Assembly (NCBI GenBank): GCA_965216755.1
Contig: CBDCGL010000011.1
Coordinates: forward strand, 3,626,963 to 3,690,962
Direction of reading: 5' to 3'
Source: Alphaproteobacteria bacterium
Lineage (GTDB): Bacteria; Pseudomonadota; Alphaproteobacteria; UBA7887
DNA length: 64,000 bases
Positions 21,519 through 54,835 of the stretch are shown here, piece after piece (the first letter of the stretch is position 1; each line of letters starts with the position of its first letter). The notes beneath the pieces are model-generated. The model did no database searches. It was not told the DNA's origin and was given only the letters and a program-made list of their open reading frames with translations. The translations under genes and the position numbers were made by a program.

Positions 21519-22284
21519 CGCCGTTGCCCGCCGTCGCCGGTGATTGGGGAAGGGGCTGAAGTTGCGGCCAAACACAGCGTTCGGCCATGTCGATGTCGTC
21601 GGGAAAATCGATCTCGGTCCAGGGCAGTCCGGTAATGTCCTCGAAGCCGAAAGCCCCCGGCGGTTCCGCGATCAACAAGTCGCGCAGCGCCTCATCATAG
21701 TAGTCGGTGGTTTGGCCGGCATCGATATAGCGGCGAGTGGCGTCGGCCAGGCGTCTGGCCATGTGCCCGGACAGGCGGAAAAAGCCGACCGATTCACCGT
21801 GCCAATCGTGAGCATGCTCTGGTTGTTTGCGAAAGTCGACCAATTGGCCGTTCTTCACGCAAAGTTTCGCCGGCTCGTCACCGGGTTCGATATTACGGTC
21901 AAGCAAGAAGCAGTTGGCGTGGCGCGAACCGAGCAGTCGCGCGATCATGCGCTGATCGTAAAGGACATCGCCGTCCATCAGCAACACGTCGTCGCCGGCC
22001 GACAAATGGGCGCGCAGCGCCCATTGGGTCACGATGCTGCCCGCGCGATAGTCCGGATTGTGGACCGTCTCAATCGGAATGCCGGCAACGGACTGGGCCA
22101 GTTCGTGCGTGATATCGGCGGCACGATAACCGGTTGCGACGACAATTCTATCGACTCCGCAACTCTGCAATATGCGAACATGTCTTTCCAACAGTGTGTG
22201 GCCGCCAAAGCGCAGCAGAATCTTCGGCCCGTCAACGCCGATCAACCGGTCGCCGACACCGGCGGCAAACAGACACGCGCGCAT
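21508..22284 (-). CDS. LicC-like nucleotidyltransferase (phospho/phosphono-alcohol cytidylyltransferase type)
   Basis: AAGVGDRL (GxGxRL) N-terminal motif and NTP_transferase fold pattern. The ATG at 22284 overlaps the upstream stop; the 106-codon upstream extension is Arg-rich and rejected. Confidence 0.8.
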   Translation of the reverse strand: MRACLFAAGVGDRLIGVDGPKILLRFGGHTLLERHVRILQSCGVDRIVVATGYRAADITHELAQSVAGIPIETVHNPDYRAGSIVTQWALRAHLSAGDDVLLMDGDVLYDQRMIARLLGSRHANCFLLDRNIEPGDEPAKLCVKNGQLVDFRKQPEHAHDWHGESVGFFRLSGHMARRLADATRRYIDAGQTTDYYDEALRDLLIAEPPGAFGFEDITGLPWTEIDFPDDIDMAERCVWPQLQPLPQSPATAGNGDES

Positions 22285-23270
22285 CAAGATACGCCGCGCG
22301 ACCGCGCGCGCCACCAGCGGTGCCCCTCGATCGCCTGCCAGGCAATCAGGCCGGGGACGCCGCCCAGGATTTCGCGCATCCGTCTGACGATCGCAATGGC
22401 GAGGCCGACATCGGCGCCGAGACCCAACACGCCAGCCACGATCATATAGCCGCCTTCCTGAAGGCCGAGCCCGCCGGGTACGGCGAACGCCGCGCTGCGC
22501 ACCGCTTGCACCAAGCCCTGAATGATCAAGGCTTCGACCATGCCCGCCGGGACCCCCATGAATGCCAATGCCAGATACACTTCGCCGGCGCCGAGCGCCC
22601 AACTCACCAGATGATAGACCGAAGCGACCGCCATCTCGCGGCGTCTGCCATAGGTCGCGCGTACGGCGCGGTCCAACCGGCGCGCACCGCCAACCAAGTT
22701 TGCCAGACTGTCGCCGCCCAAGCGCTCGATAAATCCGGCAAGAAACCCAAACAAGCCGCGTTGTTGAACGGCGGCGAAGCCGACAACGGCGGCAAAGAAC
22801 AATGCAGTAACCGCAAGCACAGCGCCGGTTAACTCGCGACCGCCATCATGGTGCGCAACCAAAAGGCCCAAGGCCACCAAGGTAAACAGGGCCTGCATCA
22901 GCACGATCAACGTCATATCGACGACCAAACTGGCCGCGGCCAGCGGCCCCGGCATGCCGCGCACGATCAAAAGTCGCGCCACCACCACATCGCCGCCGAT
23001 CTGTGCGACCGGCAGCAGTTGGTTTACCGACTGGCGAATCCAACGCATTTTCCACGCCACCAACAGCGACGGGCGCGCCCGGGTCGCCGCCACGCGACGC
23101 CAGCCAAAGGCGTCGGCCAATAGCGGAATGGCATCGAAGGCGACGATGATCAAGATCCCCCAGCCAACCGTGACTAAGGCTTCGGCCAAGGTATCGGCGC
23201 CACGCCACACAACCAAACCCGTAAACAGCGCCAAGCCGGCCAAACCAAACAGGACCATGAGCCGTTTCAT
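22284..23270 (-). CDS. UPF0104 / lysylphosphatidylglycerol-synthase-TM-region (HpnL-like, flippase-like) membrane protein
   Basis: 328-aa polytopic protein starting MKRLMVLFGLAGLALFTGLVVWRG..., resembling the HpnL/UPF0104 family. Overlaps both neighbours by 1-4 nt. Confidence 0.7.
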   Translation of the reverse strand: MKRLMVLFGLAGLALFTGLVVWRGADTLAEALVTVGWGILIIVAFDAIPLLADAFGWRRVAATRARPSLLVAWKMRWIRQSVNQLLPVAQIGGDVVVARLLIVRGMPGPLAAASLVVDMTLIVLMQALFTLVALGLLVAHHDGGRELTGAVLAVTALFFAAVVGFAAVQQRGLFGFLAGFIERLGGDSLANLVGGARRLDRAVRATYGRRREMAVASVYHLVSWALGAGEVYLALAFMGVPAGMVEALIIQGLVQAVRSAAFAVPGGLGLQEGGYMIVAGVLGLGADVGLAIAIVRRMREILGGVPGLIAWQAIEGHRWWRARSRGVS

Positions 23271-25900
23271 GGCTCTTGGGTCCTCGCCGTGGCGATCGTC
23301 ATCAGGGCCGGCAACAATAGGATCGTGGCCGCGAATGTTACGCCAACGCCAATGATCAGCAGCATACCCATACTTGCCGTGCCGACATGTTCGGACACGG
23401 CCAAGGCCCCGAAACCAGCCATGGTGGTCGCCGCGCTCAACAAGGCGGCGCGCGCCGTCGATGTCGCCAGGACGGGTTGTGCCGGCGCGGCGCGCTGGCG
23501 CCGCATCAGGTGAATGGCGCTGTCGACACCAATGCCCAGCAGCAGGGGCAGTACGATGACATTGGCGAAGTTGAAGGTCATCCCGGCAAGCGTCATGATC
23601 GCGGCCGTCAACAGCGCGCCCAGCAACAGCGGTGCCATCACCAAGGCGACGTCGATCGGACGCCGGGTTACGATCAGCAACAATGCGGCGATCGAAACCA
23701 ATGCGGCCAGCAGAGCCTGAATAAAAGCCGTTATCACGGTATCGCCTGCTTCCAACACCAAAACCGGTTGATCGGTGATATCTTCAGCAACCGTTCGCAC
23801 GGCATCGACAAAGCGCACCAAGGCGTCATTGTTGGCGACGATGTCCTCGGCCGGGAAGACCTGAACCCGTTGGCCGCCATCGCGCGCCTGGAATTGCGCC
23901 CGCAGGTCCTCTGGCAGCGCCGATTCGGTAAACGGCGCGGCGGTAAGCGATGCGTCCAACAGGGCGATCTGATAGGGCAATGCACCGAGCCAGGCGTCGC
24001 GAATAGCCGCCAGTGAGATCGACCTGTCGTCACCGGCGCGCAGGGCGCGATCCAATGCGGTGCGCAGGTCGGATACGCCGGCGGGCGCGTCAGGGCGCGC
24101 TGTGGCAACTTGGTCAAGTGCGCGCAGCAGGGCCTTCAAGGCGAGCTGTTCTTCATCCGGTGTGCTCGCGGTGCCGGGCGCCAAAGCAAACGGATCTGGT
24201 TCAGACACAAACGCAATGTCTTGGATGATTTCGTATTTCGTATCTTGATCTGCGGGCACGAAGTCGTCCAATGTGATGGCTTCGTCAACTTCGGGCAGCT
24301 GTTCGAAGGCGGTCTTGAGAGACGCCGCCTCGGCGCGGTCGGCGGCGACAACGGACGCGGTCCACGGCTTGGTCTGGGTGTCGTCCAGCAAAGTGCGCAG
24401 CGCGGTGACCGATTCACGTGCCGGATTTTGTAGGTTGAGCGGGTTCGGGTCGAAGCCGACCTGTGGCGCCACCGCCAAGCCGACCAGTGCCAGCACGGCG
24501 GCACCAATCGCGATCGGGCGCGCGTTGCGGTGCGGCCAGTGCGCGAATCGGTTTGCGCGTTGTGACCGCGGGCGCACTGAGCCGGGTGGCAACACCAGCG
24601 TCAACAGCGCCGGCAAAACCGTCAGGTTGGCGAAGAGACTGACGAACATGCCCGTGCCGGCGATAACGCCCAACTCCGACACACCGTCATAGTCGGTCAG
24701 CAAAAAGGCATAAAACCCGACCGCGGTCGACACGGCGCACAAGGTCAGGGCACCGCCGACGGCGCGTCCGGCTTTGGCAACGGCCGCGGTTGGATCGAAG
24801 CCGGCGGCGACCATCTCGCGGAAACGCAATCCATAGTGGATGCTGGCATCGATCCCAAGACTGACGAACAGAACCGCAAACGCGATCGAGATCAGGTTCA
24901 AATGTCCGACCAGGACCGCGGCAAACCATGCCGTCCACACCAGGCCGATGGCCAACGTCACCAATGCGGCGATCACCAAGCGGATAGAGCGTAAGCCAAC
25001 TAACAAAATCACCGCGACCAAGAACAACGCCACCAGTCCGGCGTGCTGCGCGCCCAATTGGGCGGATTCAAGCTCGTCATGGCCAAGCGCAACCGTGCCT
25101 GTCAATGACACCGTGACTCCGTTGGTCGGCGTTAGGGCCGCCGCGGCCGCGATATCGCGAATCGACTGTAGAACCGCCGCGCCCGGCATCAGCTGCGCGT
25201 AGTCGAGTGCGGCCGGCTGGACAACGATCACGGCGCGTAGGTCGGCCGCGGTCGGCGCGGTCCCGTGCATGATCTCAACCCAAGACAACTGCGCCGGGAC
25301 GCCGTCCAACAGGTTCTCGATCACACGCCCCATGCGTGTGAACAGCAACGCCAAATCTTCCAGCGGAGCCGCTTTGGTCAAGGCATCGTCGATGCCCAAC
25401 CGCAAGACCGCGGAAAGACCGCGCAGGCTCATGTCCTGGCGCAGGCGCTGCAACAGCGGCTGTGCCTCGCCCAAATCGTCGAGCAGGTCGAGAAGTTCCG
25501 CCTCGCTGAGATAGAACAAACCATTGTTGGCAAAAAACGCGCCGGCGCCCGGGGCGTAGACATAGGGAAAATGTTCCGGCTGGGCGTTAAGCGCGGTGGT
25601 GAGTGTGTCGCGCGCGGCGCGGACGCGATCGGGCGTGTCTGCTTCCAACAGAACGGTGACCGTGTCGTTCAGGCGCGGGAACTGCGCCTTGTAGGCTTTG
25701 TAAGTTCTCAGAAACGGTGTTTCGTCGGAGATCAAGTCCAAGGTGTCGGTATCGATTGTCATGGTCGCGACCGTATAGGGAACGGTCGCGGCGGCGCTGA
25801 CAATGGCCAAGATCACGACCCACACTGCGTATCGCTGAACAGTACCGAGCCACGTCGCCAAGACACGATCGAGCGGGGCTGTCGGTTGGCGATCAGACAA
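23267..25900 (-). CDS. HpnN-like RND/MMPL family lipid exporter
   Basis: 877 aa with two 6-TM bundles and two periplasmic loops. The N-terminal ...TIDTDTLDLISDETPFLRTYKAYKAQFP... matches the hopanoid-transporter HpnN-type pattern. Confidence 0.8.
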   Translation of the reverse strand: MSDRQPTAPLDRVLATWLGTVQRYAVWVVILAIVSAAATVPYTVATMTIDTDTLDLISDETPFLRTYKAYKAQFPRLNDTVTVLLEADTPDRVRAARDTLTTALNAQPEHFPYVYAPGAGAFFANNGLFYLSEAELLDLLDDLGEAQPLLQRLRQDMSLRGLSAVLRLGIDDALTKAAPLEDLALLFTRMGRVIENLLDGVPAQLSWVEIMHGTAPTAADLRAVIVVQPAALDYAQLMPGAAVLQSIRDIAAAAALTPTNGVTVSLTGTVALGHDELESAQLGAQHAGLVALFLVAVILLVGLRSIRLVIAALVTLAIGLVWTAWFAAVLVGHLNLISIAFAVLFVSLGIDASIHYGLRFREMVAAGFDPTAAVAKAGRAVGGALTLCAVSTAVGFYAFLLTDYDGVSELGVIAGTGMFVSLFANLTVLPALLTLVLPPGSVRPRSQRANRFAHWPHRNARPIAIGAAVLALVGLAVAPQVGFDPNPLNLQNPARESVTALRTLLDDTQTKPWTASVVAADRAEAASLKTAFEQLPEVDEAITLDDFVPADQDTKYEIIQDIAFVSEPDPFALAPGTASTPDEEQLALKALLRALDQVATARPDAPAGVSDLRTALDRALRAGDDRSISLAAIRDAWLGALPYQIALLDASLTAAPFTESALPEDLRAQFQARDGGQRVQVFPAEDIVANNDALVRFVDAVRTVAEDITDQPVLVLEAGDTVITAFIQALLAALVSIAALLLIVTRRPIDVALVMAPLLLGALLTAAIMTLAGMTFNFANVIVLPLLLGIGVDSAIHLMRRQRAAPAQPVLATSTARAALLSAATTMAGFGALAVSEHVGTASMGMLLIIGVGVTFAATILLLPALMTIATARTQEP

Positions 25901-25915
25901 GGGACGCGTGAGACC

Positions 25916-27097
25916 TTAGACGGTGGCCAAATGGCGGCGCAATCGTTGCGCGACCGCTGCTGGCGTGACCGTTGGGCGCGGCAGACCAGCCGGGACGCCG
26001 GGCCGGGTGGGCAGGTGCACAAAGTGCGGCCCGGGCCCCTGTTCGCCCAATCTATTCGCCAATACATGCGGCGTCGTGACACGTTGGGTGGTGGCATAGC
26101 CGCACGCGGCTGCGACCGCGCAAAAATCGACGGTGTGCGAAACGGTCGCTTGACCGCCGGTCGATTCATGCATGCCGTTGTCGAATAGAATATGCACCAG
26201 ATTGTTGGGGCGCGCCGCGCCGATCGTGGCCAGTGCACCAAGGCGCATCAAGGCGGCACCATCGCCATCCAAGGCAATCACGCGCACGTCTGGCCGCGCC
26301 AGCGCGAGCCCCAGCGCAAGGCTGGATACGCAGCCCATCGAACCGACCATGTAGAGCTGGTTTGGCCGGTCTTCCAACCCATAAAGGGCGCGGCCGGTAA
26401 ACCCCGTCGTGGCGATGATCACGTCGCGCGCGCCGCTCGTCGCCTGCACCGCCGCCAGCAGTTCGTGGCGCGTCGCGTCGGCGGGCGTCGCGACCGTCGG
26501 TATAGCGGTGCGCGGCGCCGGTCGGTTGGTCTCGTTCTGGGCTAGGGGATAGGGCGCGACACTCCCCTTCGACATCAAAAGGGCATACGGGCGACCGGTC
26601 TTGCGGCGCTGCGCGTCGGCGCGGTCAAAAACGCCGGCGACCGCTTCGGATGTGCGCGGAAACGGCTCCCACGGCACCTGCAACAGTTCCAATTGGCGAC
26701 CGGTTATGGGGCCCATCAGCCCATGTTGCGGTTCATCCCCGGCGCCGCCCGGCTGGCCCCGCCAAGTGACGATCAGCAGCAACGGGATGTTGAAGATGTG
26801 GGTCAACGACGACAATGGGCTGACCGCGTTGCCTAGCCCGGAGTTTTGCATCATCACCACACTGCGCCGACCACCGAGCTCGGCACCCGCCGCAATGGCG
26901 ACCGCATCGCCTTCATTCGTCGCACCGACATAGTCCAATCCGTCGGCCCCAATCACGTAGTTGATGAACGGGGTCAGATAGGAACAAGGCACGCCTGTGA
27001 ACAGATCGTAGCCGCGCGCTTTGGCGGCGCCTATAAACGCCTCGGCGTCGATCACAATGTCACACGAAATTGCCGGCGACCAACAGGTCGTCGACAT
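25916..27097 (-). CDS. ppd: phosphonopyruvate decarboxylase
   Basis: [10 protein letters not shown]-terminus; ThDP motif [31 protein letters not shown]. Start uncertain: ATG 27097/27100 (overlaps pepM) or GTG 27055 just after the pepM stop. Confidence 0.9.
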
Positions 27098-28721
27098 CAT
27101 CGATGTCGAGCCAATGCCCGGTTGTGTAGACGACCCGCACCTTCTGGCCCGCGCCAACCAAGCGATTGAACAACGCATCGATGCCGGCGTTTTCGAACGC
27201 CACGCGATCGTCGTCGCGCCAGCCCGTGAGGGTTTCAAAGGCCACCTGCGCGCCGGCGGCCGTGAAGCGCGCCACCCCCATCCACTCGCCGTGGATCTTG
27301 CCGGATAGTGCCGGTCCCATCTCGGCCAGCCAGACCGGGGCATAGTAGGCCTCGCGGCTATTGGGCAGTGAACATTTAACATAGTCGGCCGCCCGATTGG
27401 CGCCGCGATTGCGGCTGGTTTTCCAGTTGGTATCGACGGCAATGGTGATGTCGGCGTCGCTTTCCGTCAGCATGTCCAGCACATAACGACGAAACAGCAC
27501 GTCGCCATAGGATACGAACACGTCCCTGGTCGCAGGTTGCAGTGCCAGCGCCAGGGACACGATCTCTTGCGTGGTGTCGTAAGCGAGATTGTCGACATAA
27601 TCGAGGGCGGGCAGGTCGATCTTGTGCTTGGCATAGCCGCGCACCACGGTGATGTCTTTGACATCGGCTTTGCGGTAAACCTCGGCTATGTGCGCCAAGA
27701 TCGGCTTGCCGGCCACATCCAGCATTGCTTTCGGCTTGTGCTCGGTCAGGGCGCCCAATTCGCGGCCGCGCGAGGCAGCCAAAATGATCGCCGTCGCGGC
27801 GCCCTGGCTGGGTAGATAAGTTTCCTCGGCCCGCTTCAGTTCATCGGCGCCTTGCAAGCGAAACACTTCCGCCACCGGCGCGATCGCGTGTTCGACGCCA
27901 AGCAAATTTTCGTCGTCATGAATGGTCGCCGCGGTGCGCTGCATGGCGGTGATTGCCGCGCGCAGCAAATGATTGGCCCAAATCACCATCGAAACGCCGT
28001 GATCGCGGAACGCGTCGGTGGGGGTGGTGTAGTATTTGGTCGGTACCAACACCACCGGGCAGCGCCGATCCCAGGCGCGCAAGAAGCTGAACACTTCATC
28101 AGCGTTGGATCCGGCACTGTGAATCAAGATCGCGTCGGCACCAGCCGCATGATAGGCGCGCGCCCGGCGCAAGGCCTCCTCGAGCCCCCAACCGGCAATG
28201 AATGCTTCGACCCGTGCGACAATGGAAAAATCCGGATCGTGCTGGGCCGCCTTGCCGGCCCGAATCTTGCCGCAAAACTCATCGATGTCAGCCAGCGGCT
28301 GTGTGGCGCCGGCAATGAAGCTGTTGGTCTTCGGGAACTGTTTGTCCTCGATGCAGACCGCCGCCACGCCACGGCTTTCCAACTTTTGCACGAGCCGGCG
28401 CATATTGTTGAAATTGCCATATCCAGTGTCGCCGTCGAGCATGATCGGCACGGTGCACGCGTCGTTCATGAATTCGACCACTTCAAGCACCTGGGTCCAG
28501 CTGGCCTCATTGTTGTCGCGCACACCAAGCGCCGCCGCCATTGACAAGCCACTGGCCCAAACCGCGCCGAACCCGGCCTCCTCGGCGATTTTCGCGCTCA
28601 GGCCGTTATGTGCCTCGCACACAAAACTAAGTTCCGGGGTGTTCAAGGCGGCGCGGAAACGGGCAGCGCGCGACAGTTGCGCGCGTGGCGCGGTCTCGAT
28701 CGGTACGGCAGGTGCCTGCAT
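27060..28721 (-). CDS. pepM: phosphoenolpyruvate mutase fused to a C-terminal nucleotidyltransferase domain
   Basis: PepM-specific EDK-x5-NS motif ([13 protein letters not shown]) in the N-terminal ~300 aa. The C-terminal ~250 aa has [10 protein letters not shown]...KPKAML (GxG-type NTP-transferase motif). Confidence 0.9.
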
Positions 28722-37799: not shown

Positions 37800-38141
37800 T
37801 TATGGCGTGTCTGTCAGGCTCAAGAAATACGCCAGGACGTCTTCGCGCGTCTGGCCGTCAAGACGGGGGATCGGCATCAGCAAATGGGTCTTGGTCAAGG
37901 TTTCGCGAAATGCCGCGTCGTCGGCGGCCTGGTCACGGGCGATGGATCGGAAATCCGGCGGCGCGATGGTCAGATCCGGCGCCGGCGGCACACCGGTTTC
38001 GGTCTCGTGACAAGGGGCGCACCATTCGGCGACAAAAGCTCGTCCCCGCTCACTCTCCAGCGATGGAGACGCGTGGACAAGTGCCGCGGCCGTGCCGGCA
38101 ACCGAGGCGGTGATGACAACAGTGCGGGCAAACGACATCAT
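37800..38141 (-). CDS. c-type cytochrome (monoheme)
   Basis: Signal peptide, CAPCH heme-binding motif and a downstream LLMP candidate Met ligand. Confidence 0.75.
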   Translation of the reverse strand: MMSFARTVVITASVAGTAAALVHASPSLESERGRAFVAEWCAPCHETETGVPPAPDLTIAPPDFRSIARDQAADDAAFRETLTKTHLLMPIPRLDGQTREDVLAYFLSLTDTP

Positions 38142-38314
38142 TCATAGGCCTTGCTTCTGGTCTTGGGGTTGTCACGGTGGTGACACGACTCGTTTAACTC
38201 ATTTACGTGCGTCAAAGTGCTGATCTTGATCAGGGAACGGCCCCCCATGGCACATGAAAATGAACCTGCCGCCCCGGTGGTCGGCCGCGGCTGTCTGTTG
38301 TGGTGTGAACGCGC

Positions 38315-39463
38315 GTGACCGCGAAACTTTTTGAGATCGGGTTTGTTCTTAATCCTATAGCTGGCATGGGTGGCCGCGTCGGTCTCAAGGGTACAGACGG
38401 CGTCGCCCCGGAAGCACGTCGGCGCGGCGCGACACCGACGGCGCCGGGCAAGGCTGCGTTGGCGCTGGGCGCCTTGCGGGATTTGCTGGGCAAAATGCGG
38501 CCGCCGCTGGATCTGATATGGCGCACCGGCGGTGGCGTTTTGGGGGCAACGGCACTCAGCGAAGCGGGATTTCGTATCGTTGACATTGTCCATGAACCCG
38601 CTGGTGCGACAACCGCGACAGATACGAAAACAGTGGCTCGTGCGGTCCTTGAACGGGGCGTCGACTTGATTCTTTTTTGCGGTGGCGATGGCACGGCGCG
38701 CGATATCGCCGCGACGGTCGGTGAGCGCGTCCCGATACTGGGTATACCCGCCGGCGTGAAAATGTACTCTGGTGTATTCGGCGTCACGCCGGCCCGCACG
38801 GCCGAAATCGTGGTTGCATTCGCGCGCGGTGCAATCACGGCGGAAACAGTCGAGATTCTCGACCTGGATGAAGAGCGCTATCGGCAGGGCGTATGGGCTG
38901 TGCGTTTGTATCACGCGGCGCGCACGCCGATCGCGCCGGCTTTTACCCAAGCCAGTAAGGCACTGATCACGGCGTCCAGCGAAGACGATGCCAAGGCGGA
39001 TATTGCCAAGACACTTATCGAAGATTTCGCTGGTGCGTCTACGATCTTGATTCTGCTAGGGCCGGGCAGCACCGTCCGTGCGTTTGGCGATGCGTTGGGG
39101 ATCGAGACCACTCTGCTCGGCGTGGACGCAATTGTTGGTGGCGTGCTTGTGGGCGCCGATCTCTCGGAACGAGGGATTCTGGAATTGCTCGATCGTTATC
39201 CGGAATGCAAATTGATCCTCAGCCCAATCGGCGCGCAAGGTTTTATCCTCGGGCGCGGCAACCTGCAGCTCAGTCCCAAGGTGATCCGTCGGATCGGACG
39301 CGACAATATCGTTGTCGTGGCGACGCCCGCCAAACTTCGGCAGACCAACGCCCTGCGTTTTGACATGGGCGACAGGGACCTCGACGAAGCTCTCGCCGGC
39401 ACCGGATATGTTTCCGTTCTGGTCGGCTATCGCACCAGTCAGCTTGTGAAAATAGCAACATAG
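38315..39463 (+). CDS. ATP-NAD kinase family protein (AcoX-like)
   Basis: NPIAGMGGRVGLKGTDG, FCGGDGTARD and GIPAGVKMYSGVFG motifs. GTG start. Confidence 0.8.
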   Translation: MTAKLFEIGFVLNPIAGMGGRVGLKGTDGVAPEARRRGATPTAPGKAALALGALRDLLGKMRPPLDLIWRTGGGVLGATALSEAGFRIVDIVHEPAGATTATDTKTVARAVLERGVDLILFCGGDGTARDIAATVGERVPILGIPAGVKMYSGVFGVTPARTAEIVVAFARGAITAETVEILDLDEERYRQGVWAVRLYHAARTPIAPAFTQASKALITASSEDDAKADIAKTLIEDFAGASTILILLGPGSTVRAFGDALGIETTLLGVDAIVGGVLVGADLSERGILELLDRYPECKLILSPIGAQGFILGRGNLQLSPKVIRRIGRDNIVVVATPAKLRQTNALRFDMGDRDLDEALAGTGYVSVLVGYRTSQLVKIAT

Positions 39464-46863: not shown

Positions 46864-47090
46864 CGGCGTTTCTCCAACCTTCGTATCCGACCCTAGGGCG
46901 CGCCCGCACGTTAGCGCTAACATTGGCCCAAGACAAGAGCTGACTGACGCACCCCGGCTGGCCATGGCTGTCTCCGGGTTTGTTCAATAAGTCAAACGTG
47001 TAGGTCGAAGATTTGGTGTCAGAAAGTTTACACGGGACCTGACCCGGTTCGTCGTGCGCATGTGGCGAGGCTGCGTCATACGCTGGTTTC

Positions 47091-47121
47091 AAAAACCGCC
47101 AAATTCAGCTCTTTTTGGCGG
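47091..47121 (-). terminator. hairpin plus T-run (read on the minus strand) inside the long intergenic region
   Basis: Minus strand: CCGCCAAA-N10-TTTGGCGG followed by TTTTT. No annotated minus-strand gene lies upstream of it. Confidence 0.35.
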
Positions 47122-47292
47122 CTGTCGGGTGGCCGGATCAGGGCCGTCGCCGGCACCGCCCGCGGCTTTTCCGGTTGATCGTTAACTTTTGCGTTTCGGC
47201 GTTGAAACAAACGTCGCGCGGCTATCGCTTAACTCTGTGAGGTATTTCTAATTTCTAAAATGAAATCAATTAAATAGTAATTTTTCGAAAAT

Positions 47293-47308
47293 TGGCACGG
47301 GTCTTGCT
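47293..47308 (+). promoter_or_regulatory. sigma-54 (-24/-12) promoter
   Basis: TGGCACG-GGTC-TTGCT exactly fits TGGCACG-N4-TTGCW. It lies about 145 nt upstream of the ATG at 47453 and directly follows the only strongly AT-rich stretch in the window (47236..47290). Confidence 0.75.
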
Positions 47309-47452
47309 GGGAAGGGGCCGCTAGGTAGTGAGGCGCACGACGCTGTTCATGACCTGGGGGGTCTTGGCGTGTGTCGACAAAGGGAACGCAACAAGCCAGA
47401 CACGCGCGATGGCCCCGCTCATGAGGACATAGGGACCTAGGAGAACAAAATA

Positions 47453-48640
47453 ATGAGGACCGGTACCTTGCTTTCCGCAGCCTCGGTCTTGGCGTTCAGC
47501 ATCGCGCTGAGCGGCACCGCCGCAGGTCAGACGCTCGACGACAACCAGCTCAATGTTGGCGCGTTGTTTGGGCAAGCAAATGGCAACGCAAATGATCGCA
47601 GCCGCGCAGACAACGACTTCATCGACGCCGACGTAACGCTGACCGACAACAATGCCGGGTTCGGCAACGCGTCGGGCGGCAGCACGGCCGACAATGACGG
47701 CATCGACAATAAGGGTGGCACGATCGACAACGATGGCTACGACATCGACGTCAAAGATGTCACCGTCAAGGCTTCCAACGTCGAAGACAGCAACAACAGC
47801 AACGCCCTGTATTGGTGGTACAACTCGCTCAACACCGTGAATGTCGATCACAGTATTCACGACAACATCGCGATGCTCAGCCGCACCGATCTCGAAGCCA
47901 TGGTGTCGGGCGTCAACATGTTCAACCTGAACGCCCATGGCGCGGCCACCGGCGGTGCCGGCCTCGCGTATGCTGGCGGCGAAGCCAATGCGAAAGCCAA
48001 GGGCAAGGTCAAAGCCAAAGCTGACGGCGACTCGACGGCGCGCAACAAAAACCGCACCGACGCCGACTCTGGCGGATTCGCGCTGGGCGCGGCCGGCGGC
48101 AACACGGGCGGCGACGCCACCAACACGGCCGGCAGCTCGACGGCCCATGGCGGCGGTGCACTCAACGCCACCGATGGTACGGCAGCCGGAATCTTCATCG
48201 GCTTTGCGGCGAACAAGACCGAATCCACGGACGGCAGCGGCGACGCGGCCGGCGCGTCGGGTGCGGGCGGCACGGCAGCCGGCGATGCCGGCGATGTCGG
48301 CGACACCTTGGGACTCGCGGTGGTCGATGCCGACGCCACGTCAGGTGCGGCCAAGGCCGACGCCAAGTCCGGCAATATCGGCAACATGGCAGCAGCCGGT
48401 AACACTTCCAGCGCGGACGCCAGCAACAACTCGGCAGCGACCATCGAAGGTGGCACGCAAACAACAACCCTGGATGTCAACTTCGCCACCGGCAGCATCT
48501 CCAGCATGATCAGTGATCTGCGCGGCATCAACCCGATCGTTCAGAACACTGGCTTTGCTTCCAACCAAAACGTCTCGATCAGCGTCAACGCGATGGTCGC
48601 CAGCGTCAACGGCGGCGGCACCATCGGTAGCGGCCGCTAA
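47453..48640 (+). CDS. secreted Gly/Ala/Asn/Asp/Thr-rich protein of unknown family (paralog A)
   Basis: AGGAG RBS, Sec signal peptide (…SIALSGTAAG), 395 aa, no Cys. Alignable end-to-end with the downstream gene. Confidence 0.8.
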   Translation: MRTGTLLSAASVLAFSIALSGTAAGQTLDDNQLNVGALFGQANGNANDRSRADNDFIDADVTLTDNNAGFGNASGGSTADNDGIDNKGGTIDNDGYDIDVKDVTVKASNVEDSNNSNALYWWYNSLNTVNVDHSIHDNIAMLSRTDLEAMVSGVNMFNLNAHGAATGGAGLAYAGGEANAKAKGKVKAKADGDSTARNKNRTDADSGGFALGAAGGNTGGDATNTAGSSTAHGGGALNATDGTAAGIFIGFAANKTESTDGSGDAAGASGAGGTAAGDAGDVGDTLGLAVVDADATSGAAKADAKSGNIGNMAAAGNTSSADASNNSAATIEGGTQTTTLDVNFATGSISSMISDLRGINPIVQNTGFASNQNVSISVNAMVASVNGGGTIGSGR

Positions 48641-48685
48641 TCGATTGTCGTCAAAGGTTTGAAGCAGGCTCTCTAGGAGGCAAAA

Positions 48686-49861
48686 ATGAGAAAACTCACC
48701 TTGTTGACCGCTGCGTCGGCCATGGCCCTGGGCTTGGGTCTTGCGCAGTCGGCGCAGGCCGTGGATGTGACCAACAACCAAGCCAATGTTGGTATCCTCG
48801 GCACCGCCAACAACAACGCCAACGATCGCAGCGTCACCGACAATGACGGTCTGGATCTGGATGTCAAAGCCGACAGCAACAATATCGGCTTCGGCAATGC
48901 CAGTGGCGAATCGACCGCAGACAACGACTTCGTCGACAACAAAGAAGGCACCATCGACAATGATGAGGTCGACGTCGACGTCACCGGCGTGGATATCACC
49001 CTGTCCAACAAAGAGCGCAGCGGCAACACCGCCGTCTGGGCGATGATGTGGGGCTCGGGCAACAGCGCGTCATATGACGGCAGCATCCACAACAACATCG
49101 CGCAGCTGAGCCACACCCAGCTGAGCGCTGCGGTGACCGAAATCCAGATGTTCGATATCGAAGCCGGTGGCTACGCCTTTGGTGGCCTCGGCGCCGCGGT
49201 TGCCGACGGCGAAGCCAAAGCCCGGGCCAAGGGCAAGGTCCGCGCTAAGGCCGATGGTGACTCGACGGCCAAGAACCGCAACAAAGCGGATGCTGACGCG
49301 TTTGGCGCCACGGCGGCGGCGGCTGGCCACAACGAAGGTGGCACGGTCGAAAACGAAGCCGGCAACTCCGCCGCCAATGGCGGCTTGGCCATTAACCTCA
49401 CCGATGGTGACGCGATCGCCTTGCTCGGTGCCGCGGCCAACTGGACCAAGTCCGAAGATGGCGGCAACGATGCCAAGGGCATGTCCGACAAGGGCGGCAG
49501 CGCCGAAGGTGCCGGCGGCGACGTCGGCGACACTGCCGCGGTTGCTTTGGTCGATGCCGACGCCAACTCTGGCGACGCCACCGCGACGGCGACGTCGGGT
49601 GACGTGGCCAACACGGCCGTTGGTGTCAACGAGTCGACGGCCACGGCGTCGAACGACACCGAAGCCACGCTTGGCGGCTCCAGCCAAGAAACCAAAGTGG
49701 CGTTCAACTTCACGACCGGCGGCCTCCTCGGGTCGGTCGGAAGCCTGCGCGGAATCAATCCGGTCATGCAAAATACCGGCTTCGCGCACAATCAGAACGT
49801 TGGCGTCAGCGTTAACGCGTTGGTCGGCAGCGTCAACGGCTCGGGCTCGATCCGGCCGTAG
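48686..49861 (+). CDS. secreted Gly/Ala/Asn/Asp/Thr-rich protein of unknown family (paralog B)
   Basis: AGGAGG RBS, signal peptide (…GLAQSAQA), 391 aa. Shares the NANDRS..DND, AKGKVxAKADGDSTA and LRGINPxxQNTGFAxNQNV blocks with paralog A. Confidence 0.8.
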   Translation: MRKLTLLTAASAMALGLGLAQSAQAVDVTNNQANVGILGTANNNANDRSVTDNDGLDLDVKADSNNIGFGNASGESTADNDFVDNKEGTIDNDEVDVDVTGVDITLSNKERSGNTAVWAMMWGSGNSASYDGSIHNNIAQLSHTQLSAAVTEIQMFDIEAGGYAFGGLGAAVADGEAKARAKGKVRAKADGDSTAKNRNKADADAFGATAAAAGHNEGGTVENEAGNSAANGGLAINLTDGDAIALLGAAANWTKSEDGGNDAKGMSDKGGSAEGAGGDVGDTAAVALVDADANSGDATATATSGDVANTAVGVNESTATASNDTEATLGGSSQETKVAFNFTTGGLLGSVGSLRGINPVMQNTGFAHNQNVGVSVNALVGSVNGSGSIRP

Positions 49862-49891: not shown

Positions 49892-49927
49892 GCGGTGGGA
49901 GGCCCCCCTCCCACCGCTTTTTTTTTT
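49892..49927 (+). terminator. Rho-independent terminator of the paralog pair
   Basis: GCGGTGGGAGG-CCCC-CCTCCCACCGC followed by T10. Confidence 0.9.
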
Positions 49928-49946: not shown

Positions 49947-50951
49947 CTAACGCGGTAACTCGATCGCGTAATCGGGCAGCGGCGCCGGCGCCTCGATCAA
50001 ACCTTGTTCGGCCAGGAACGCGGCGAAACGCTGGTAACGATTTTGATCCAAACTGCCCGGTCGCAACGCAAATCGCGGCAGCGTGTCGCGCCAGGCACGC
50101 CGGTTCAGCTCGTCATTGATGCTGTCACGATAGGCGACGAACAAGTCCCAAGACTCATCAGGATGATTGACCAAAAAATGGGCGGCGCGTTCCAGGGCGT
50201 CGACGAACCGGCCCAAGCGCGGCTGGTCGATCGCATTGCGTTGCGCGACGATGATCAGCTCGTCGTAAGCGGGCACGCCATGTTCCTCGACAAAGAAAGC
50301 ACGGCCTTGATGGCCCTCGATGGCCAGCTGGTTGAGTTCAAAATTGCGATAAGCACCGATGACCGCGTCAACCTGACCCGACAGTAACGCCGGGCTCAAC
50401 GCGAAATTCACGTTGATCAGTTCCACATCGGCCAGTGCCACCCCATGCTTGGCCAGCATGGTGCCCAAGAGCGCATCTTCGAAGCCGCCGACGGAGTAGC
50501 CAACCTTGCGCCCCGCCAAGTCGGCGATTTTCGTGATCGGCCCGTCGTCGAGCACCAGCAATGTGTTTAGTGGCGTCGCCACCAAGGTGGCCACGCGCAC
50601 CAAGGGCAGCCCCTCCGCGACGTGCAAATGCAATTGCGGCTGATAGCTGACGGCCAAATCCACTTGTCCGGCGGCCACCAATTTTGGCGGCAATGTCGGA
50701 TCGGCTGGTTCGCTCATGGCGACTTCAAGCCCGGCTTCGGCGAAATAACCCTTTTGCTCGGCAATGACCAAAGTGGCGTGATCGGGATTGAGAAACCAAT
50801 CCAACATCAGCGACAGCGGCTCGGCCGTGGCCTTGCTGGCGCCGCCGGCATTCAAGGCAACAAGGAAAACGAGCGTCAGCGCCCTTGCCACGACCGGTCG
50901 ACGAAGACCGCCAAGACTATGTCCAAAATTGAATTGTCGGGTTCTCGACAT
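49947..50951 (-). CDS. NMT1/THI5-like (ThiY-like) periplasmic substrate-binding protein
   Basis: Signal peptide; LMLDWFLNPDHATLVIAEQKGYFAEAGLEV...DLAVSYQP is typical of the NMT1/ThiY family. Preceded by a TPP riboswitch. Confidence 0.8.
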   Translation of the reverse strand: MSRTRQFNFGHSLGGLRRPVVARALTLVFLVALNAGGASKATAEPLSLMLDWFLNPDHATLVIAEQKGYFAEAGLEVAMSEPADPTLPPKLVAAGQVDLAVSYQPQLHLHVAEGLPLVRVATLVATPLNTLLVLDDGPITKIADLAGRKVGYSVGGFEDALLGTMLAKHGVALADVELINVNFALSPALLSGQVDAVIGAYRNFELNQLAIEGHQGRAFFVEEHGVPAYDELIIVAQRNAIDQPRLGRFVDALERAAHFLVNHPDESWDLFVAYRDSINDELNRRAWRDTLPRFALRPGSLDQNRYQRFAAFLAEQGLIEAPAPLPDYAIELPR

Positions 50952-51029
50952 TCGCGCCGCCTCCGCTGCAATGGGCGTGCGGGAAGGGGCGGTTCGGCCT
51001 CACGGCGCGCATGTGTGTGCGAACGGCAA

Positions 51030-51130
51030 TCGGTTCCGCTCCCTTCGCCGGCATGACCCGGATCAGGTTCAGAGGGTCACCGCCTGCACGGTATCTCAGC
51101 CCTTCAACAAGGCCCCCCTGGGATGACGGC
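51030..51130 (-). ncRNA. TPP (THI-box) riboswitch
   Basis: Minus strand reads GGGGGGCC..GGGCUGAGAUACC...ACCCUCUGAACCUGAUCCGGGUCAUGCCGGCGAAGGGAGC. This matches the conserved CUGAGA and ACCUGAUCnGGnUnAUnCCnGCGnAGGGA cores, about 80 nt upstream of the binding-protein ATG. Confidence 0.9.
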
Positions 51131-51478: not shown

Positions 51479-52051
51479 CTAATTGCGTTTGGATCGGGCG
51501 AGCGGCCGGATCCGACGGCCGTCCGTAGCCGACGTCGCGTCGTCTGCTTTGGGATGGAGGCACGCGCACGATTTTGCCGCGCCGTCATCGACGGCATGGC
51601 TGACATACGCATCAATGGCGTCGGTGAGGGCATCTTGGATGTGCAGGCGACGGTGTGCGGCGATCAGACGTAATTTGAAGTGACGCTGTGGGTCTAGCCG
51701 CACTGAAAGCCGCACCCGTCCGGTGCGGTCGCGCTTCAATTCCGCCTCGGCGGCAATCTCCACCGCGCGCGGCGATCGCTGTTTGGTGTTCGACCGGGTG
51801 CTGGGCACAGCGTCGGTTGCCAACCGATCCAAGTCAGGCGCGCTCAATTCGGCAACGGCAGGACGTGGCGGCGCCAGACGGAGCAATGCGTCCGAATCTT
51901 CAATGGCCGGCAATAAGGCCAAATGATCGGCGATGTCGCTGAGGTCGTCCCGATGGTCGACGTCGCGCGCGAGCGGCGCGTCGCCAAGTCGCGACGGTGC
52001 CGCCGCACCCTTGCGGGCCAAAAGGCGGCTGGTCAAGGGCGCCGACTTCAT
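51479..52051 (-). CDS. ParG-like partner protein: disordered N-terminus plus C-terminal ribbon-helix-helix-like domain
   Basis: The ATG overlaps the parA-like stop (ATGA). RVRLSVRLDPQRHFKLRLIAAHRRLHIQDALTDAIDAYV resembles an RHH/CopG fold. Confidence 0.55.
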   Translation of the reverse strand: MKSAPLTSRLLARKGAAAPSRLGDAPLARDVDHRDDLSDIADHLALLPAIEDSDALLRLAPPRPAVAELSAPDLDRLATDAVPSTRSNTKQRSPRAVEIAAEAELKRDRTGRVRLSVRLDPQRHFKLRLIAAHRRLHIQDALTDAIDAYVSHAVDDGAAKSCACLHPKADDATSATDGRRIRPLARSKRN

Positions 52052-52752
52052 ACAGCGGCCATCCGCGTCGGGCCGACAATGGCATCGCTGCCGGTGCCCG
52101 TGCGCGCCGAGGTAAACGCCGGTGGTGTCGCGGCGCGGGCGAGGCGCACCGCCAAATATTGCCACAGGTCATGGATCTCCTGCGCTGATTTGGAGCGTTC
52201 ATTGAGCTCCATCACGGTGCGACCGTCGATCATGCTGGCGGCGAAATCGGTCCTTTGGTGAATGGTTATCGGCGCCACGGTGCCATGCTGCGACAAGGCG
52301 ATTGCCGCCTCGGCCGTGATCCGGGCCCGTGGCGCGGCGCCGTTGATGACAAATGTCAGGGGTTTGCCCAGCCGTTCGACCAATTCGACCGTCGCGCCGG
52401 CGGCGCGCAAGTCATGTGGGCTCGGTCGTGTCGGAATTGCCACCAAGTTGGCCAAGCGCACGACATGTTCGATGGTTGCGGTGTTGGCTGGTGGTGTGTC
52501 GAAGATCAACAATTTGATGCCACGTGCGCGCATGGCCTGCATGTCTTCCGCCAACCGCGCGACAAATGTATGTGCGAAGACGGGCGTGTCGGCCGCGCGT
52601 TCGTTCCACCAGTCAGCCAAACTGCCTTGGGGGTCCGTATCGATCATCGCAACCGGGCCGTGGCCGGCGCGTTCGGCTTGCACGGCCATATGGCCGGCCA
52701 AGGTGGTCTTTCCGGAACCGCCTTTTTGCGATGTAAAAGCCAATACTTGCAT
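52048..52752 (-). CDS. ParA/MinD-family P-loop ATPase (small type Ib-like ParA)
   Basis: Deviant Walker A SQKGGSGKTT, IDTDPQGS, and LLIFDTPP Walker B. Confidence 0.85.
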   Translation of the reverse strand: MQVLAFTSQKGGSGKTTLAGHMAVQAERAGHGPVAMIDTDPQGSLADWWNERAADTPVFAHTFVARLAEDMQAMRARGIKLLIFDTPPANTATIEHVVRLANLVAIPTRPSPHDLRAAGATVELVERLGKPLTFVINGAAPRARITAEAAIALSQHGTVAPITIHQRTDFAASMIDGRTVMELNERSKSAQEIHDLWQYLAVRLARAATPPAFTSARTGTGSDAIVGPTRMAAV

Positions 52753-53416: not shown

Positions 53417-53603
53417 GATGTGTACTTCCCTGTTATCCCTATTGGCTGCCTGCACAGATTTTGTAGGTGAATTTATCGAAGCCTACAAGATGTGGTCTTT
53501 TGGGTCGCGCAACTTCTCACGCGCATCGCTGCTTGACGAGTGAGCCACGACCGTTCGAATATTATCCGGAAAGCTGCCGGGCGAACAACCGCGAGCGACA
53601 AAT

Positions 53604-54755
53604 ATGAGTGTAGCATTGGCTCCCAATCATGATTTGATTGGCATCAAAGGTGGATTTGGCCGACTCAGCACACCGGCCTTGGTGCTCGACCTCGACGCCA
53701 TGGAGGCGAATATCCAGGCCATGGCGGCCCATTGCGGGCGCACCGGGCAAGCGCTTCGGCCGCATGCCAAGAGCCACAAGTCGGTCGCGATTGCTCGCCG
53801 GCAGATCGAGGCCGGTGCCGTCGGGCAGTGTTGCGCGACCATCCGCGAGGCCGAAGCCATGGCCGATGCGGCGGTGCCGGGTGTGCTGATCACCTCGCCG
53901 CCTACGGGGCCCGCAAAAACTGCCCGGCTCATGGCGCTGCATGCCAAAGCGCCGGACGCGATGGTGGTTGCCGATCATCCGGATACCGTCAGGGCCTTGG
54001 CCACAGCGGTGGCCGATCAGGGTGGTGGCCGGATGCTTCGCGTTTTGGTTGATTTCGATGTCGGCCTGGCGCGTACCGGCGCGGCGGATGCGGCGTCGGC
54101 AGCGGCGCTTGCACAAGCTATCGACGCGGCGCCGCAACTCAGATTTGCCGGTGTCCAAGCCTATTACGGCCAACTGCAACATGTTGCGCGCTTCGCTGAG
54201 CGGACTGATCTGGTCATGGCCCAGGCGGCGCGTGTGCGTGAACTGGTCGACCGCCTGGCCGACCAGGGTCTGGCACCCGAATTGGTCACCGGCGGCGGAA
54301 CCGGAACCCATGACATCGATCATCGTGCTGGCGTGTTCAACGAACTGCAGGCTGGCTCGTACGTGTTTACCGATGTTGACTATAACGCCGTTGACCTGAC
54401 CGCGGACCAACCGCGTCCGTTTGCCCCGGCGCTGTTCGTGATGGCGACCGTGGTCAGTGTAAGCCATGATAGCCACGCGGTTATCGATGCCGGTTTGAAA
54501 AGCTTTGCCACCGACGGGCCGGCACCGGTGTTTGGCGATGGCGCGCCGGCCGGCGCCACGTACAAATTCATGGGTGACGAACATGGTGCCGTGGTCTATG
54601 CGGGTGGCGAAAACACGCGCCTCAAAATTGGTGACGCTGTTCGATGCGTCGTGCCCCATTGTGACCCGACTGTGAACCTGTACGACCACTATCATTGCTA
54701 TCGAGACGACACTTTGGTCGATATCTGGCCGGTCGACGGTCGCGGTAATCCCTGA
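53604..54755 (+). CDS. DSD1-family PLP enzyme (D-threonine aldolase / D-serine dehydratase-like, alanine-racemase N-terminal fold)
   Basis: TPALVLDLDAMEANI...LRPHAKSHK (PLP lysine)...YVFTD and a C-terminal HCDPTVNLY. Confidence 0.8.
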   Translation: MSVALAPNHDLIGIKGGFGRLSTPALVLDLDAMEANIQAMAAHCGRTGQALRPHAKSHKSVAIARRQIEAGAVGQCCATIREAEAMADAAVPGVLITSPPTGPAKTARLMALHAKAPDAMVVADHPDTVRALATAVADQGGGRMLRVLVDFDVGLARTGAADAASAAALAQAIDAAPQLRFAGVQAYYGQLQHVARFAERTDLVMAQAARVRELVDRLADQGLAPELVTGGGTGTHDIDHRAGVFNELQAGSYVFTDVDYNAVDLTADQPRPFAPALFVMATVVSVSHDSHAVIDAGLKSFATDGPAPVFGDGAPAGATYKFMGDEHGAVVYAGGENTRLKIGDAVRCVVPHCDPTVNLYDHYHCYRDDTLVDIWPVDGRGNP

Positions 54756-54835
54756 TCTGCTCATGTCGCGCGGCGCGCGGCCGCCAATACCGCTATAGTG
54801 CTGGCCGCACCGATTGTGGCAATGAAGAAACAGCT

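What the first reader, a model, noticed from the sequence alone, without database searches (positions are those of the whole stretch)
47453..49861. Tandem paralogous secreted low-complexity proteins with no recognisable family
Two adjacent co-oriented genes encode 395- and 391-aa proteins that align over their whole length. Shared blocks are an N-terminal NQxNVGxLGxANxNANDRSxxDND, a central GEAxAxAKGKVxAKADGDSTAxNxNxxDAD, and a C-terminal LRGINPxxQNTGFAxNQNVxxSVNAxVxSVNG.

Both have Sec signal peptides, strong RBSs and no cysteine, and both are dominated by Gly/Ala/Asn/Asp/Thr. The N-terminal third has roughly 22-25-residue quasi-repeats, each carrying an Asp cluster (DNDxxD). The C-terminal Q-x-G-x-x-N-Q-N stretch is reminiscent of, but not the same as, curlin-type repeat units.

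I cannot assign them to any family I know. They are not flagellin, RTX, autotransporter, PEP-CTERM or S-layer SLH proteins. Together with a sigma-54 promoter and a strong terminator they form an isolated two-gene unit. That fits a conditionally expressed extracellular structural protein: fibre, matrix, beta-solenoid or amyloid-like, possibly Ca-binding.
Basis: partly seen in the sequence, partly recalled or inferred. Interest (0 to 1): 0.85.

Follow-up and report, generated by a model that had tools for sequence, protein, structure and literature searches.

The report
Orphan secreted acidic protein gene pair
Two neighbouring genes, plus a third copy elsewhere in the same genome, encode real, exported, acidic Gly/Ala/Asn/Asp-rich proteins behind a textbook sigma-54 promoter; they have no detectable relative in about 15 billion public proteins, so they are a lineage-restricted family whose function can only be guessed.

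Summary
ORFs 47453-48640 and 48686-49861 (+) encode 395- and 391-aa paralogues that are 54% identical over their full length with only 2 gaps. They are real genes. The annotated frame has no stops and the lowest pN/pS of the six frames (0.58; Jukes-Cantor-corrected dN/dS about 0.4). Third codon positions are the most diverged, and GC3 is 0.79.

Both have Sec-type signal peptides, no Cys, and a net charge of -22 and -27. They share one perfect sigma-54 promoter (47293-47308) and one strong terminator (49892-49917).

No family could be assigned. Pfam, NCBIfam, PHROGs, PADLOC and PDB all gave nothing. A full HMMER profile scan of 1.84 billion cluster representatives found only the two proteins and a third paralogue (P0003) on the same 4.85-Mb contig. 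DNA and motif scans of genome, metagenome, viral, plasmid and phage collections found nothing.

Curlin resemblance failed every test: no QxGxxN unit, hhalign probability 0.3%, no csg neighbours. AlphaFold2 failed twice (pLDDT 28-29), so the beta-solenoid idea is untested, and no global sequence periodicity exists.

My best guess, at low confidence, is an abundant, conditionally expressed, beta-rich acidic extracytoplasmic structural or cation-binding protein. It is a genuine orphan family and moderately interesting.

The parts
47096..47121 (.). Perfect 8-bp inverted repeat CCGCCAAA-N10-TTTGGCGG, about 185 bp upstream of the -24 element. It is a candidate enhancer (UAS) for a sigma-54 activator. 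It could equally belong to the divergent PhyH promoter.
   Evidence: role is inferred only
47225..47292 (+). AT-rich tract (GC 22-26% in a 62% GC genome) abutting the promoter. It contains a one-mismatch IHF-like site at 47264-47276 and may be a DNA-bending element.
   Evidence: the IHF match is not significant on its own
47293..47308 (+). Sigma-54 (-24/-12) promoter TGGCAC-GGGTC-TTGCT, 145 nt upstream of the first ATG
   Evidence: perfect consensus match; 0.18 expected per 64 kb on both strands, so about 7e-4 expected for this intergenic region in this orientation (my arithmetic)
47439..47444 (+). Ribosome-binding site AGGAGA of gene 1
   Evidence: read directly from the sequence
47453..48640 (+). 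Gene 1: 395-aa orphan secreted acidic protein (P0001). Signal peptide is about codons 1-25 (47453-47527).
48675..48680 (+). Ribosome-binding site AGGAGG of gene 2, in a 45-nt intergenic spacer with no terminator
48686..49861 (+). Gene 2: 391-aa paralogue (P0002), 54% identical to gene 1. Signal peptide is codons 1-25 (AQA|VD; 48686-48760).
49892..49927 (+). Intrinsic terminator: 11-bp stem (9 GC pairs), 4-nt loop, T10

Best explanation
**Shown or strongly supported.**
- The region is a bicistronic operon, native to the chromosome.
- It is transcribed from a sigma-54 promoter. By established knowledge of sigma-54, it is therefore silent until an enhancer-binding activator is triggered.
- It ends at an intrinsic terminator.
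- It encodes two old paralogues of a three-member, lineage-restricted protein family.
- Each product carries a Sec signal peptide, has no lipobox or Cys, and has no twin-arginine motif. It is therefore exported across the inner membrane as a soluble, very acidic, Cys-free, nearly Pro-free protein rich in Gly, Ala, Asn, Asp, Ser and Thr.
- Selection acts on the protein sequence along its whole length.

**Inferred, low confidence.**
- The mature proteins are folded and beta-strand-rich rather than disordered.
- They are made in large amounts when induced.
- They act as structural components of the envelope or the extracellular matrix, perhaps as a mixed polymer or coat of the paralogues.
- The three conserved DNDxxD clusters and the overall negative charge may bind divalent cations.
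For: **The genes are real.**
- The annotated frame has no stops and the lowest pN/pS (0.58) of the six frames; the others range from 0.74 to 1.21 and all contain stops.
- Jukes-Cantor-corrected dN is 0.44 against dS 1.12.
- Identity by codon position is 0.65, 0.67 and 0.50.
- GC3 is 0.79.

**The duplication is old and there has been no recent gene conversion.** pS is 0.49-0.74 in every 65-codon window.

**Operon signals** are.

**Evidence for a folded, beta-rich protein.**
- Only 2 gaps in 391 columns at 54% identity, even through the low-complexity centre.
- pN is uniform at 0.28-0.38 along the protein.
- Period-2 hydrophobic moment is 0.761 against 0.633 +/- 0.056 in shuffles, while the helical moment is not raised.
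- Mean hydropathy of 0.46-0.47 lies on the folded side of the Uversky boundary of 0.44.

**Evidence for high expression when induced.** The two genes have the strongest C-ending codon bias of 18 window genes:
- C3 at fourfold sites is 0.58 against 0.37-0.48.
- NNC/(NNC+NNT) is 0.75 against 0.52-0.66.
- GGG is 2-3% of Gly codons.

**Cation binding.** DNDxxD occurs three times at conserved positions in all three paralogues, and net charge is -22 and -27 for the two window proteins.
Against: - No structural model exists: AlphaFold2 gave pLDDT 28.3 and 29.3 with almost no secondary structure. That is also what a disordered protein would give.
- There is no sequence periodicity of the kind beta-solenoid fibres usually show.
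- No secretion, chaperone, usher or nucleator gene is nearby. Passage beyond the periplasm is therefore not shown.
- The beta-moment excess is only about 2.3 SD.
- The codon-bias argument lacks a ribosomal-protein reference set from this genome.
- There are no expression data.
- The sigma-54 activator is unknown.
Confidence: 0.35

Rival explanations
1. The proteins are intrinsically disordered, acidic, hydrophilic periplasmic or secreted proteins (hydrophilin-like, or a cation or metal buffer). They act in solution rather than as an assembled structure.
For: AlphaFold2 gave pLDDT below 30 throughout in two runs. About 70% of residues are G, A, N, D, S or T, and net charge is -22 and -27. There is no repeat periodicity and no assembly genes are nearby.
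Against: Disordered regions normally accumulate indels and evolve fast. Here there are 2 gaps in 391 columns, and pN in the low-complexity centre is as low as elsewhere. Hydropathy lies on the folded side of the charge-hydropathy boundary, and the period-2 moment is raised. Low pLDDT is in any case expected from a 3-sequence alignment.
Confidence: 0.2
2. The proteins are extremely diverged members of a known family of secreted beta-rich proteins, beyond the reach of sequence methods. Candidates are curlin/HfaA-like amyloid subunits, Fap-like subunits, or parallel beta-helix adhesins. Their partner genes would be encoded elsewhere in the genome.
For: Composition (G/A/N/S/T/D-rich, no Cys, almost no Pro) and Sec export resemble curlin-type subunits. 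HfaA of Caulobacter is described as curlin-like and dependent on a CsgG-like HfaB (PMC6707917). Many Alphaproteobacteria carry only the curlin subunit genes plus csgH (PMC3521004). Only 64 kb of a 4.85-Mb genome could be inspected.
Against: There is no Pfam or NCBIfam hit at E <= 10. The hhalign probability against E. coli CsgA is 0.3%. All three paralogues have zero QxGxxN units, against 5 in CsgA. No csgG, csgH or hfaB-like gene lies in the window. A profile search against PDB sequences gave only low-complexity noise.
Confidence: 0.12
3. The ORFs are not functional genes: either chance open frames in GC-rich DNA, or the antisense ORFs are the real genes.
For: Long antisense ORFs of 206-275 aa overlap both genes. 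There is no homologue outside this genome.
Against: The sense frame alone is stop-free in both copies. It has the lowest pN/pS and the highest amino-acid identity. Third positions are the most diverged. RBS, signal peptide, promoter and terminator are all in place. A third paralogue is conserved over the full length. Antisense openness is expected from GCN, GGN, AAC and GAC codons.
Confidence: 0.02

Closest known systems
Curlin subunits CsgA/CsgB (Pfam Curlin_rpt)
   Same: Sec signal peptide; no Cys; almost no Pro; rich in Gly, Asn, Ala, Ser and Asp; paralogous subunit genes in tandem. Short look-alike strings are present (GFGNAS; QNTGFAxNQN).
   Different: No tandem QxGxxN repeat units (0 against 5). 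No Pfam hit. hhalign probability 0.3%. More than twice the length of E. coli CsgA, with no periodicity. No csgG, csgE, csgF or csgH nearby. Sigma-54 rather than CsgD/RpoS control.
Caulobacter holdfast anchor proteins HfaA/HfaD
   Same: Alphaproteobacterial, exported surface proteins that form SDS- and heat-resistant multimers. HfaA is described as curlin-like (PMC6707917). HfaD is, from my memory and not checked here, of a size comparable to these proteins.
   Different: No NCBIfam or Pfam model matched. No CsgG-like hfaB is adjacent, as it is in the hfaABD operon. I did not have the Hfa sequences for a direct comparison.
Parallel beta-helix / beta-solenoid passenger or ice-binding type proteins
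   Same: G/A/N/T/S/D/V-rich and Cys-poor, with alternating hydrophobic-polar strands such as DIDVKDVTV and NVSISVNAMV.
   Different: No autotransporter barrel, TPS or DUF3494 domain. No repeat period. No usable fold prediction.
RTX / beta-roll Ca-binding proteins
   Same: Acidic, Gly/Asp/Asn-rich, with Asp clusters that could bind Ca2+.
   Different: No GGxGxDxUx nonapeptides and no HemolysinCabind hit. These proteins have an N-terminal Sec signal peptide, whereas RTX proteins use a C-terminal type I signal.

Membership tests
Curlin (CsgA/CsgB) | Tandem repeat units with the minimal motif X6-Q-X-G-X2-N-X10 (definition as quoted in PMC3521004) | tested here: not met
Curlin (CsgA/CsgB) | Match to the Curlin_rpt profile, or profile-profile similarity to CsgA | tested here: not met
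   Pfam gave no family at E <= 10. hhalign of A1 against CsgA gave probability 0.3%, with 17 low-complexity columns aligned
Curlin (CsgA/CsgB) | Neighbouring csgG (and csgE/csgF, or csgH in Alphaproteobacteria) | tested here: not met
   40 Pfam scans of window ORFs show none. The rest of the genome could not be read.
Curlin (CsgA/CsgB) | Forms amyloid fibres (ThT or Congo red binding, SDS resistance) | not testable with these tools
   Needs purified protein
Holdfast anchor HfaA/HfaD | Sequence similarity to Hfa proteins, and an adjacent CsgG-like hfaB | tested here: not met
   No Pfam or NCBIfam hit to any family. No CsgG-like gene in the window. I did not verify that these libraries hold Hfa models, so the sequence part is weaker than the neighbourhood part.
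RTX / beta-roll | GGxGxDxUx nonapeptide repeats (HemolysinCabind) and a C-terminal type I secretion signal | tested here: not met
   No Pfam hit. An N-terminal Sec signal peptide is present instead.
Autotransporter / two-partner secretion exoprotein | C-terminal beta-barrel translocator, or N-terminal TPS domain | tested here: not met
   No Pfam hit. The C-termini (GSGR, SIRP, GIGN) lack the terminal aromatic residue of outer-membrane barrels.
Flagellin | Flagellin_N and Flagellin_C domains, and no signal peptide | tested here: not met
   No Pfam hit. A signal peptide is present.
Sigma-54-dependent promoter | -24 GG and -12 GC elements, consensus TGGCAC-N5-TTGCW, upstream of and facing the gene | tested here: met
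   Perfect match at 47293-47308 (+), 145 nt before the ATG
Sigma-54-dependent promoter | Dependence on RpoN and on an enhancer-binding protein bound at an upstream site | not testable with these tools
   Only a candidate inverted repeat at 47096-47121. No activator gene lies in the window.
Sec-exported (non-lipoprotein) protein | Basic n-region, hydrophobic h-region, small residues at -3 and -1, no lipobox Cys, no twin-arginine | tested here: met
   Read from the sequences. No Cys anywhere. No dedicated predictor was available.

The most novel reading that the evidence does not exclude
These three paralogues may be the founding members of a previously unseen class of sigma-54-switched, Sec-exported, acidic beta-rich structural proteins, such as a new fibre, coat or cation-binding matrix. 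The class would be confined to a deep, barely sampled alphaproteobacterial lineage, with a fold not represented among known families.
Probability: 0.2. Interest if true: 0.7.

Novelty: categorically new. Interest (0 to 1): 0.45.

Why it matters
At the sequence level this family has no relative in any resource I could query, yet it shows every sign of a functional, selected and probably highly expressed gene set. If the products prove to be a new kind of surface or matrix polymer or cation-binding coat, that would add a new building block to bacterial envelope biology. It would also give a clean sigma-54-controlled model for studying it.

The 'categorically new' label applies to the protein family only. 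No new mechanism has been demonstrated. Orphan secreted low-complexity proteins are common in poorly sampled lineages, and the nearest aconitase in 185,579 species genomes is only 72% identical. The practical interest is therefore moderate until there is expression or structural evidence.

Tried and rejected
**Family and homology searches: nothing found.**
- Pfam, NCBIfam, PHROGs and PADLOC scans at E <= 10 gave nothing, apart from signal-peptide noise to Spy.
- PDB sequence searches with a single sequence and with a profile gave only Lys/Ala low-complexity noise at E > 1.
- The word-indexed search of 5.8 billion clusters found only the three paralogues.
- The full HMMER profile scan of 1.84 billion representatives found the same three.
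- Sub-domain profiles of the N-terminal 138 aa and C-terminal 66 aa gave nothing at E <= 10.
- Back-translated pattern scans with tblastn confirmation found no relative in genome, metagenome or viral contigs.
- The degenerate DNA motif for QN[TA]GFAxNQN had 0 matches in genome contigs and metagenome contigs.
- tblastn against plasmids and phages found no match.

**Locus and context look-ups.**
- Exact look-ups of P0001 and P0003 returned 'not on record'. The P0003 locus could therefore not be examined.
- The cluster look-up showed singletons with no names.
- Synteny: 80 loci around PhyH homologues (at most 63% identity) carry no related gene and share only an occasional LacI neighbour.

**Structure and repeats.**
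- Two AlphaFold2 runs gave pLDDT 28.3 and 29.3.
- I did not run fold search, because matches from such models are meaningless.
- Repeat hunting found self-diagonal scores no better than shuffles.
- Column autocorrelation also showed nothing above shuffles.
- There are no DNA tandem repeats of note.
- An apparent 38-40-residue unit that I saw by eye in the central region did not survive the shuffle test, so I dropped it.

**Regulatory region.**
- An Rfam scan of the leader found nothing.
- The leader RNA folds only marginally better than shuffles (z = -2.1).
- The IHF consensus matches with one mismatch only, which is not significant.

**Literature.** Searches gave only the curli and holdfast analogies.

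**Readings considered and rejected.**
- Outer-membrane barrel: no terminal aromatic residue and low aromatic content.
- Lipoprotein: no Cys.
- Tat substrate: no RR motif.
- Recent horizontal island: GC content and codon usage look native.
Full report
**1. What is there**

The window holds two co-oriented ORFs at 47453-48640 (395 aa) and 48686-49861 (391 aa). They align end to end at 54% identity and 67% similarity, with two single-residue gaps (E = 2e-108).

Both proteins lack Cys and have one or two Pro. About 70% of residues are Ala, Gly, Asn, Asp, Ser or Thr. Acidic residues outnumber basic ones roughly two to one: 42 against 20, and 49 against 22.

Each starts with a classical Sec signal peptide. 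There is no lipobox and no twin-arginine motif (read).

**2. They are real genes**

I aligned the two genes codon by codon and asked which of the six frames looks selected.
- Only the annotated frame is free of stops in both copies. It has the lowest pN/pS (0.58) and the highest amino-acid identity (0.54).
- The other five frames have 1-18 stops per copy and pN/pS of 0.74-1.21.
- With Jukes-Cantor correction, dN is 0.44 and dS is 1.12.
- Identity is 0.65 and 0.67 at codon positions 1 and 2, but 0.50 at position 3.
- GC3 is 0.79, against 0.70-0.74 for the five neighbouring genes compared in the same call.

The long antisense ORFs of 206-275 aa are the expected by-product of GCN, GGN, AAC and GAC codons.

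pS is 0.49-0.74 in every 65-codon window. The similarity is therefore old and maintained by selection on the protein, not by recent gene conversion. There are no DNA microsatellites behind the low complexity.

**3. Operon anatomy**

- A perfect sigma-54 consensus, TGGCAC-GGGTC-TTGCT, lies at 47293-47308 on the coding strand, 145 nt before the first ATG.
- The pattern is expected 0.18 times in the whole window. It occurs twice; the other copy sits inside an MMPL ORF.
- Immediately upstream is a tract of 22-26% GC in a 62% GC genome. It contains a one-mismatch IHF-like site.
- About 185 bp upstream of the -24 element is a perfect inverted repeat, CCGCCAAA-N10-TTTGGCGG. These fit the usual enhancer, bend and promoter layout, but that reading is inference only.
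- Gene 1 has the RBS AGGAGA. Gene 2 has AGGAGG in a 45-nt spacer, and no terminator was found in that spacer.
- An 11-bp GC-rich hairpin followed by T10 comes after gene 2.

The flanking genes are unrelated. Upstream is a divergent PhyH-family dioxygenase with a LacI regulator. Downstream is a convergent NMT1/THI5-like gene under its own TPP riboswitch. No sigma-54 activator, secretion or assembly gene was found among the 40 window ORFs scanned.

**4. Family: none**

Pfam, NCBIfam, PHROGs and PADLOC gave nothing at E <= 10. PDB sequences gave nothing real.

The word-indexed search of 5.8 billion protein clusters returned three proteins: the two window proteins and P0003. P0003 is 422 aa, 48-49% identical, and lies on the same 4,853,305-bp contig but outside the window. 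All three are singleton clusters without names.

A profile of the three proteins was scored by HMMER against 1.84 billion representatives of about 15 billion proteins. It again found only those three.

Further searches were all empty:
- N- and C-terminal sub-profiles.
- Pattern plus tblastn scans of species-representative genomes, JGI metagenomes and IMG/VR.
- An exact degenerate-DNA scan for the most conserved motif, QN[TA]GFAxNQN; I estimate about 0.5 chance hits in 596 Gb.
- tblastn against plasmids and phages.

*Caveat.* HMMER at this database size needs roughly 45 bits, by my estimate. Relatives below about 30% identity, or ones sharing only a short domain, could escape.

*Context.* The host is an alphaproteobacterium from a poorly sampled lineage. 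Its aconitase is at most 72% identical, and its PhyH at most 63% identical, to anything in 185,579 species genomes. None of 80 PhyH loci carries a related gene. Orphan status is therefore partly a sampling effect. Even so, the saturated dS shows the family has existed for a long time.

**5. Tests of the suggested resemblances**

*Curlin.* The family is defined by tandem X6QXGX2NX10 units and, usually, csgG or csgH neighbours (PMC3521004).
- The three paralogues contain no QxGxxN unit.
- hhalign gives 0.3% probability.
- No csg-like gene is nearby.

*Holdfast anchor.* HfaA is curlin-like and HfaB is CsgG-like (PMC6707917). This is an attractive alphaproteobacterial analogy, but nothing links these genes to it.

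*Other families.* RTX, autotransporter, flagellin and outer-membrane-barrel features are absent (and inspection of the C-termini).

*Repeats.*
- The only reproducible repeat is DNDxxD, three times at conserved positions in each paralogue.
- Self-diagonal scores do not exceed shuffles.
- Column autocorrelation does not exceed shuffles either; z is about 3 at best for offsets 12, 27 and 39 in the N-terminal third.

**6. Structure**

AlphaFold2 was run twice: once with the three-sequence alignment, and once with gene 2 minus its signal peptide as the target. Mean pLDDT was 28.3 and 29.3, and pTM 0.13 and 0.12. These models are unusable, so I ran no fold search. The beta-solenoid idea remains untested.

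Indirect indicators lean towards a folded, beta-rich protein:
- The alignment is almost indel-free and pN is uniform through the low-complexity centre.
- Period-2 hydrophobic moment is 2.3 SD above shuffles, while the helical moment is not raised.
- Conserved alternating segments include DIDVKDVTV, TLDVNFATG and NVSISVNAMV.
- Charge and hydropathy values lie just on the folded side of the boundary.

A short, more ordinary segment at about residues 115-160 (WW/MW, SIHxNIAxLS) may be helical.

**7. Expression level**

The two genes have the most extreme C-ending codon preference of 18 genes in the window, and they almost avoid GGG. In GC-rich proteobacteria this pattern usually marks highly expressed native genes. 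That is established knowledge, but it was not calibrated here on ribosomal genes.

**8. Best reading**

*Shown.* This is a native, selected, bicistronic unit behind a sigma-54-type promoter, encoding Sec-exported acidic paralogues of an orphan family.

*Inferred, about 0.35 confidence.* The products are made abundantly on a specific signal and serve as beta-rich structural or matrix components outside the cytoplasm. Their Asp clusters and negative charge may bind divalent cations.

*Rivals.*
- Disordered acidic periplasmic or secreted hydrophilin or cation buffer (0.2).
- A hyper-diverged member of a known fibre or adhesin family with partners elsewhere in the genome (0.12).
- Not genes (0.02).

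The remaining probability is 'something else'.

**9. Verdict**

The fibre, amyloid, solenoid and Ca-binding reading is neither supported nor excluded, and its curlin flavour is rejected.

The family is new at the sequence level. The biology is unknown, so interest is moderate (0.45).

Noticed in passing
window 51023-51129 (-) and 49947-50951 (-): A TPP riboswitch (68.8 bits, above the gathering score) lies directly upstream of an NMT1/THI5-like gene. This is an independent thiamine-related unit, convergent with the two-gene operon.
   Followed up: partly
window 20892-28721 (-): Probable phosphonate or phosphonolipid cluster. It comprises a PEP-mutase fused to a nucleotidyltransferase (27060-28721), a TPP enzyme resembling phosphonopyruvate decarboxylase (25916-27442), an MMPL transporter (23267-25900), an LPG_synthase_TM protein (22284-23270) and a CDP-alcohol phosphatidyltransferase (20892-21575).
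   Followed up: no
window 23622-23637 (-): A second perfect TGGCAC-N5-TTGCT match lies inside the MMPL ORF. It is probably chance, but it could be an internal sigma-54 promoter for the downstream LPG_synthase_TM gene.
   Followed up: no
window 1215-2639 (+), 2664-3371 (+), 16624-17430 (+), 38138-38950 (-), 51479-52165 (-), 53562-54764 (-): Further ORFs with coding-like GC3 but no Pfam domain, including a 474-aa and a 400-aa protein. This fits a genome from a poorly sampled lineage with many unassigned genes.
   Followed up: no
window 52048-52752 (-) with 51479-52165 (-): An orphan ParA/MinD-type ATPase gene overlaps, by about 118 nt as called, a domain-less 228-aa ORF downstream. No parB or replication gene was seen next to it.
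   Followed up: no
window 47022-47041 vs 47287-47306: A 20-nt direct repeat (75% identity) places a degenerate copy of the promoter sequence (GAAAGTTTACACGGGACCTG) 265 bp upstream of the real -24/-12 element. It lacks the GG/GC dinucleotides and is probably chance.
   Followed up: no
outside the window (same 4.85-Mb contig): A third paralogue, P0003 (422 aa), has a 25-residue insertion in the central low-complexity region. Its locus could not be retrieved by any tool.
   Followed up: partly
window 17540-18487 (+): A 315-aa sigma-70-family factor with regions 1.2, 2, 3 and 4, which looks RpoH-like by size. It is unrelated to the sigma-54 promoter discussed here.
   Followed up: no
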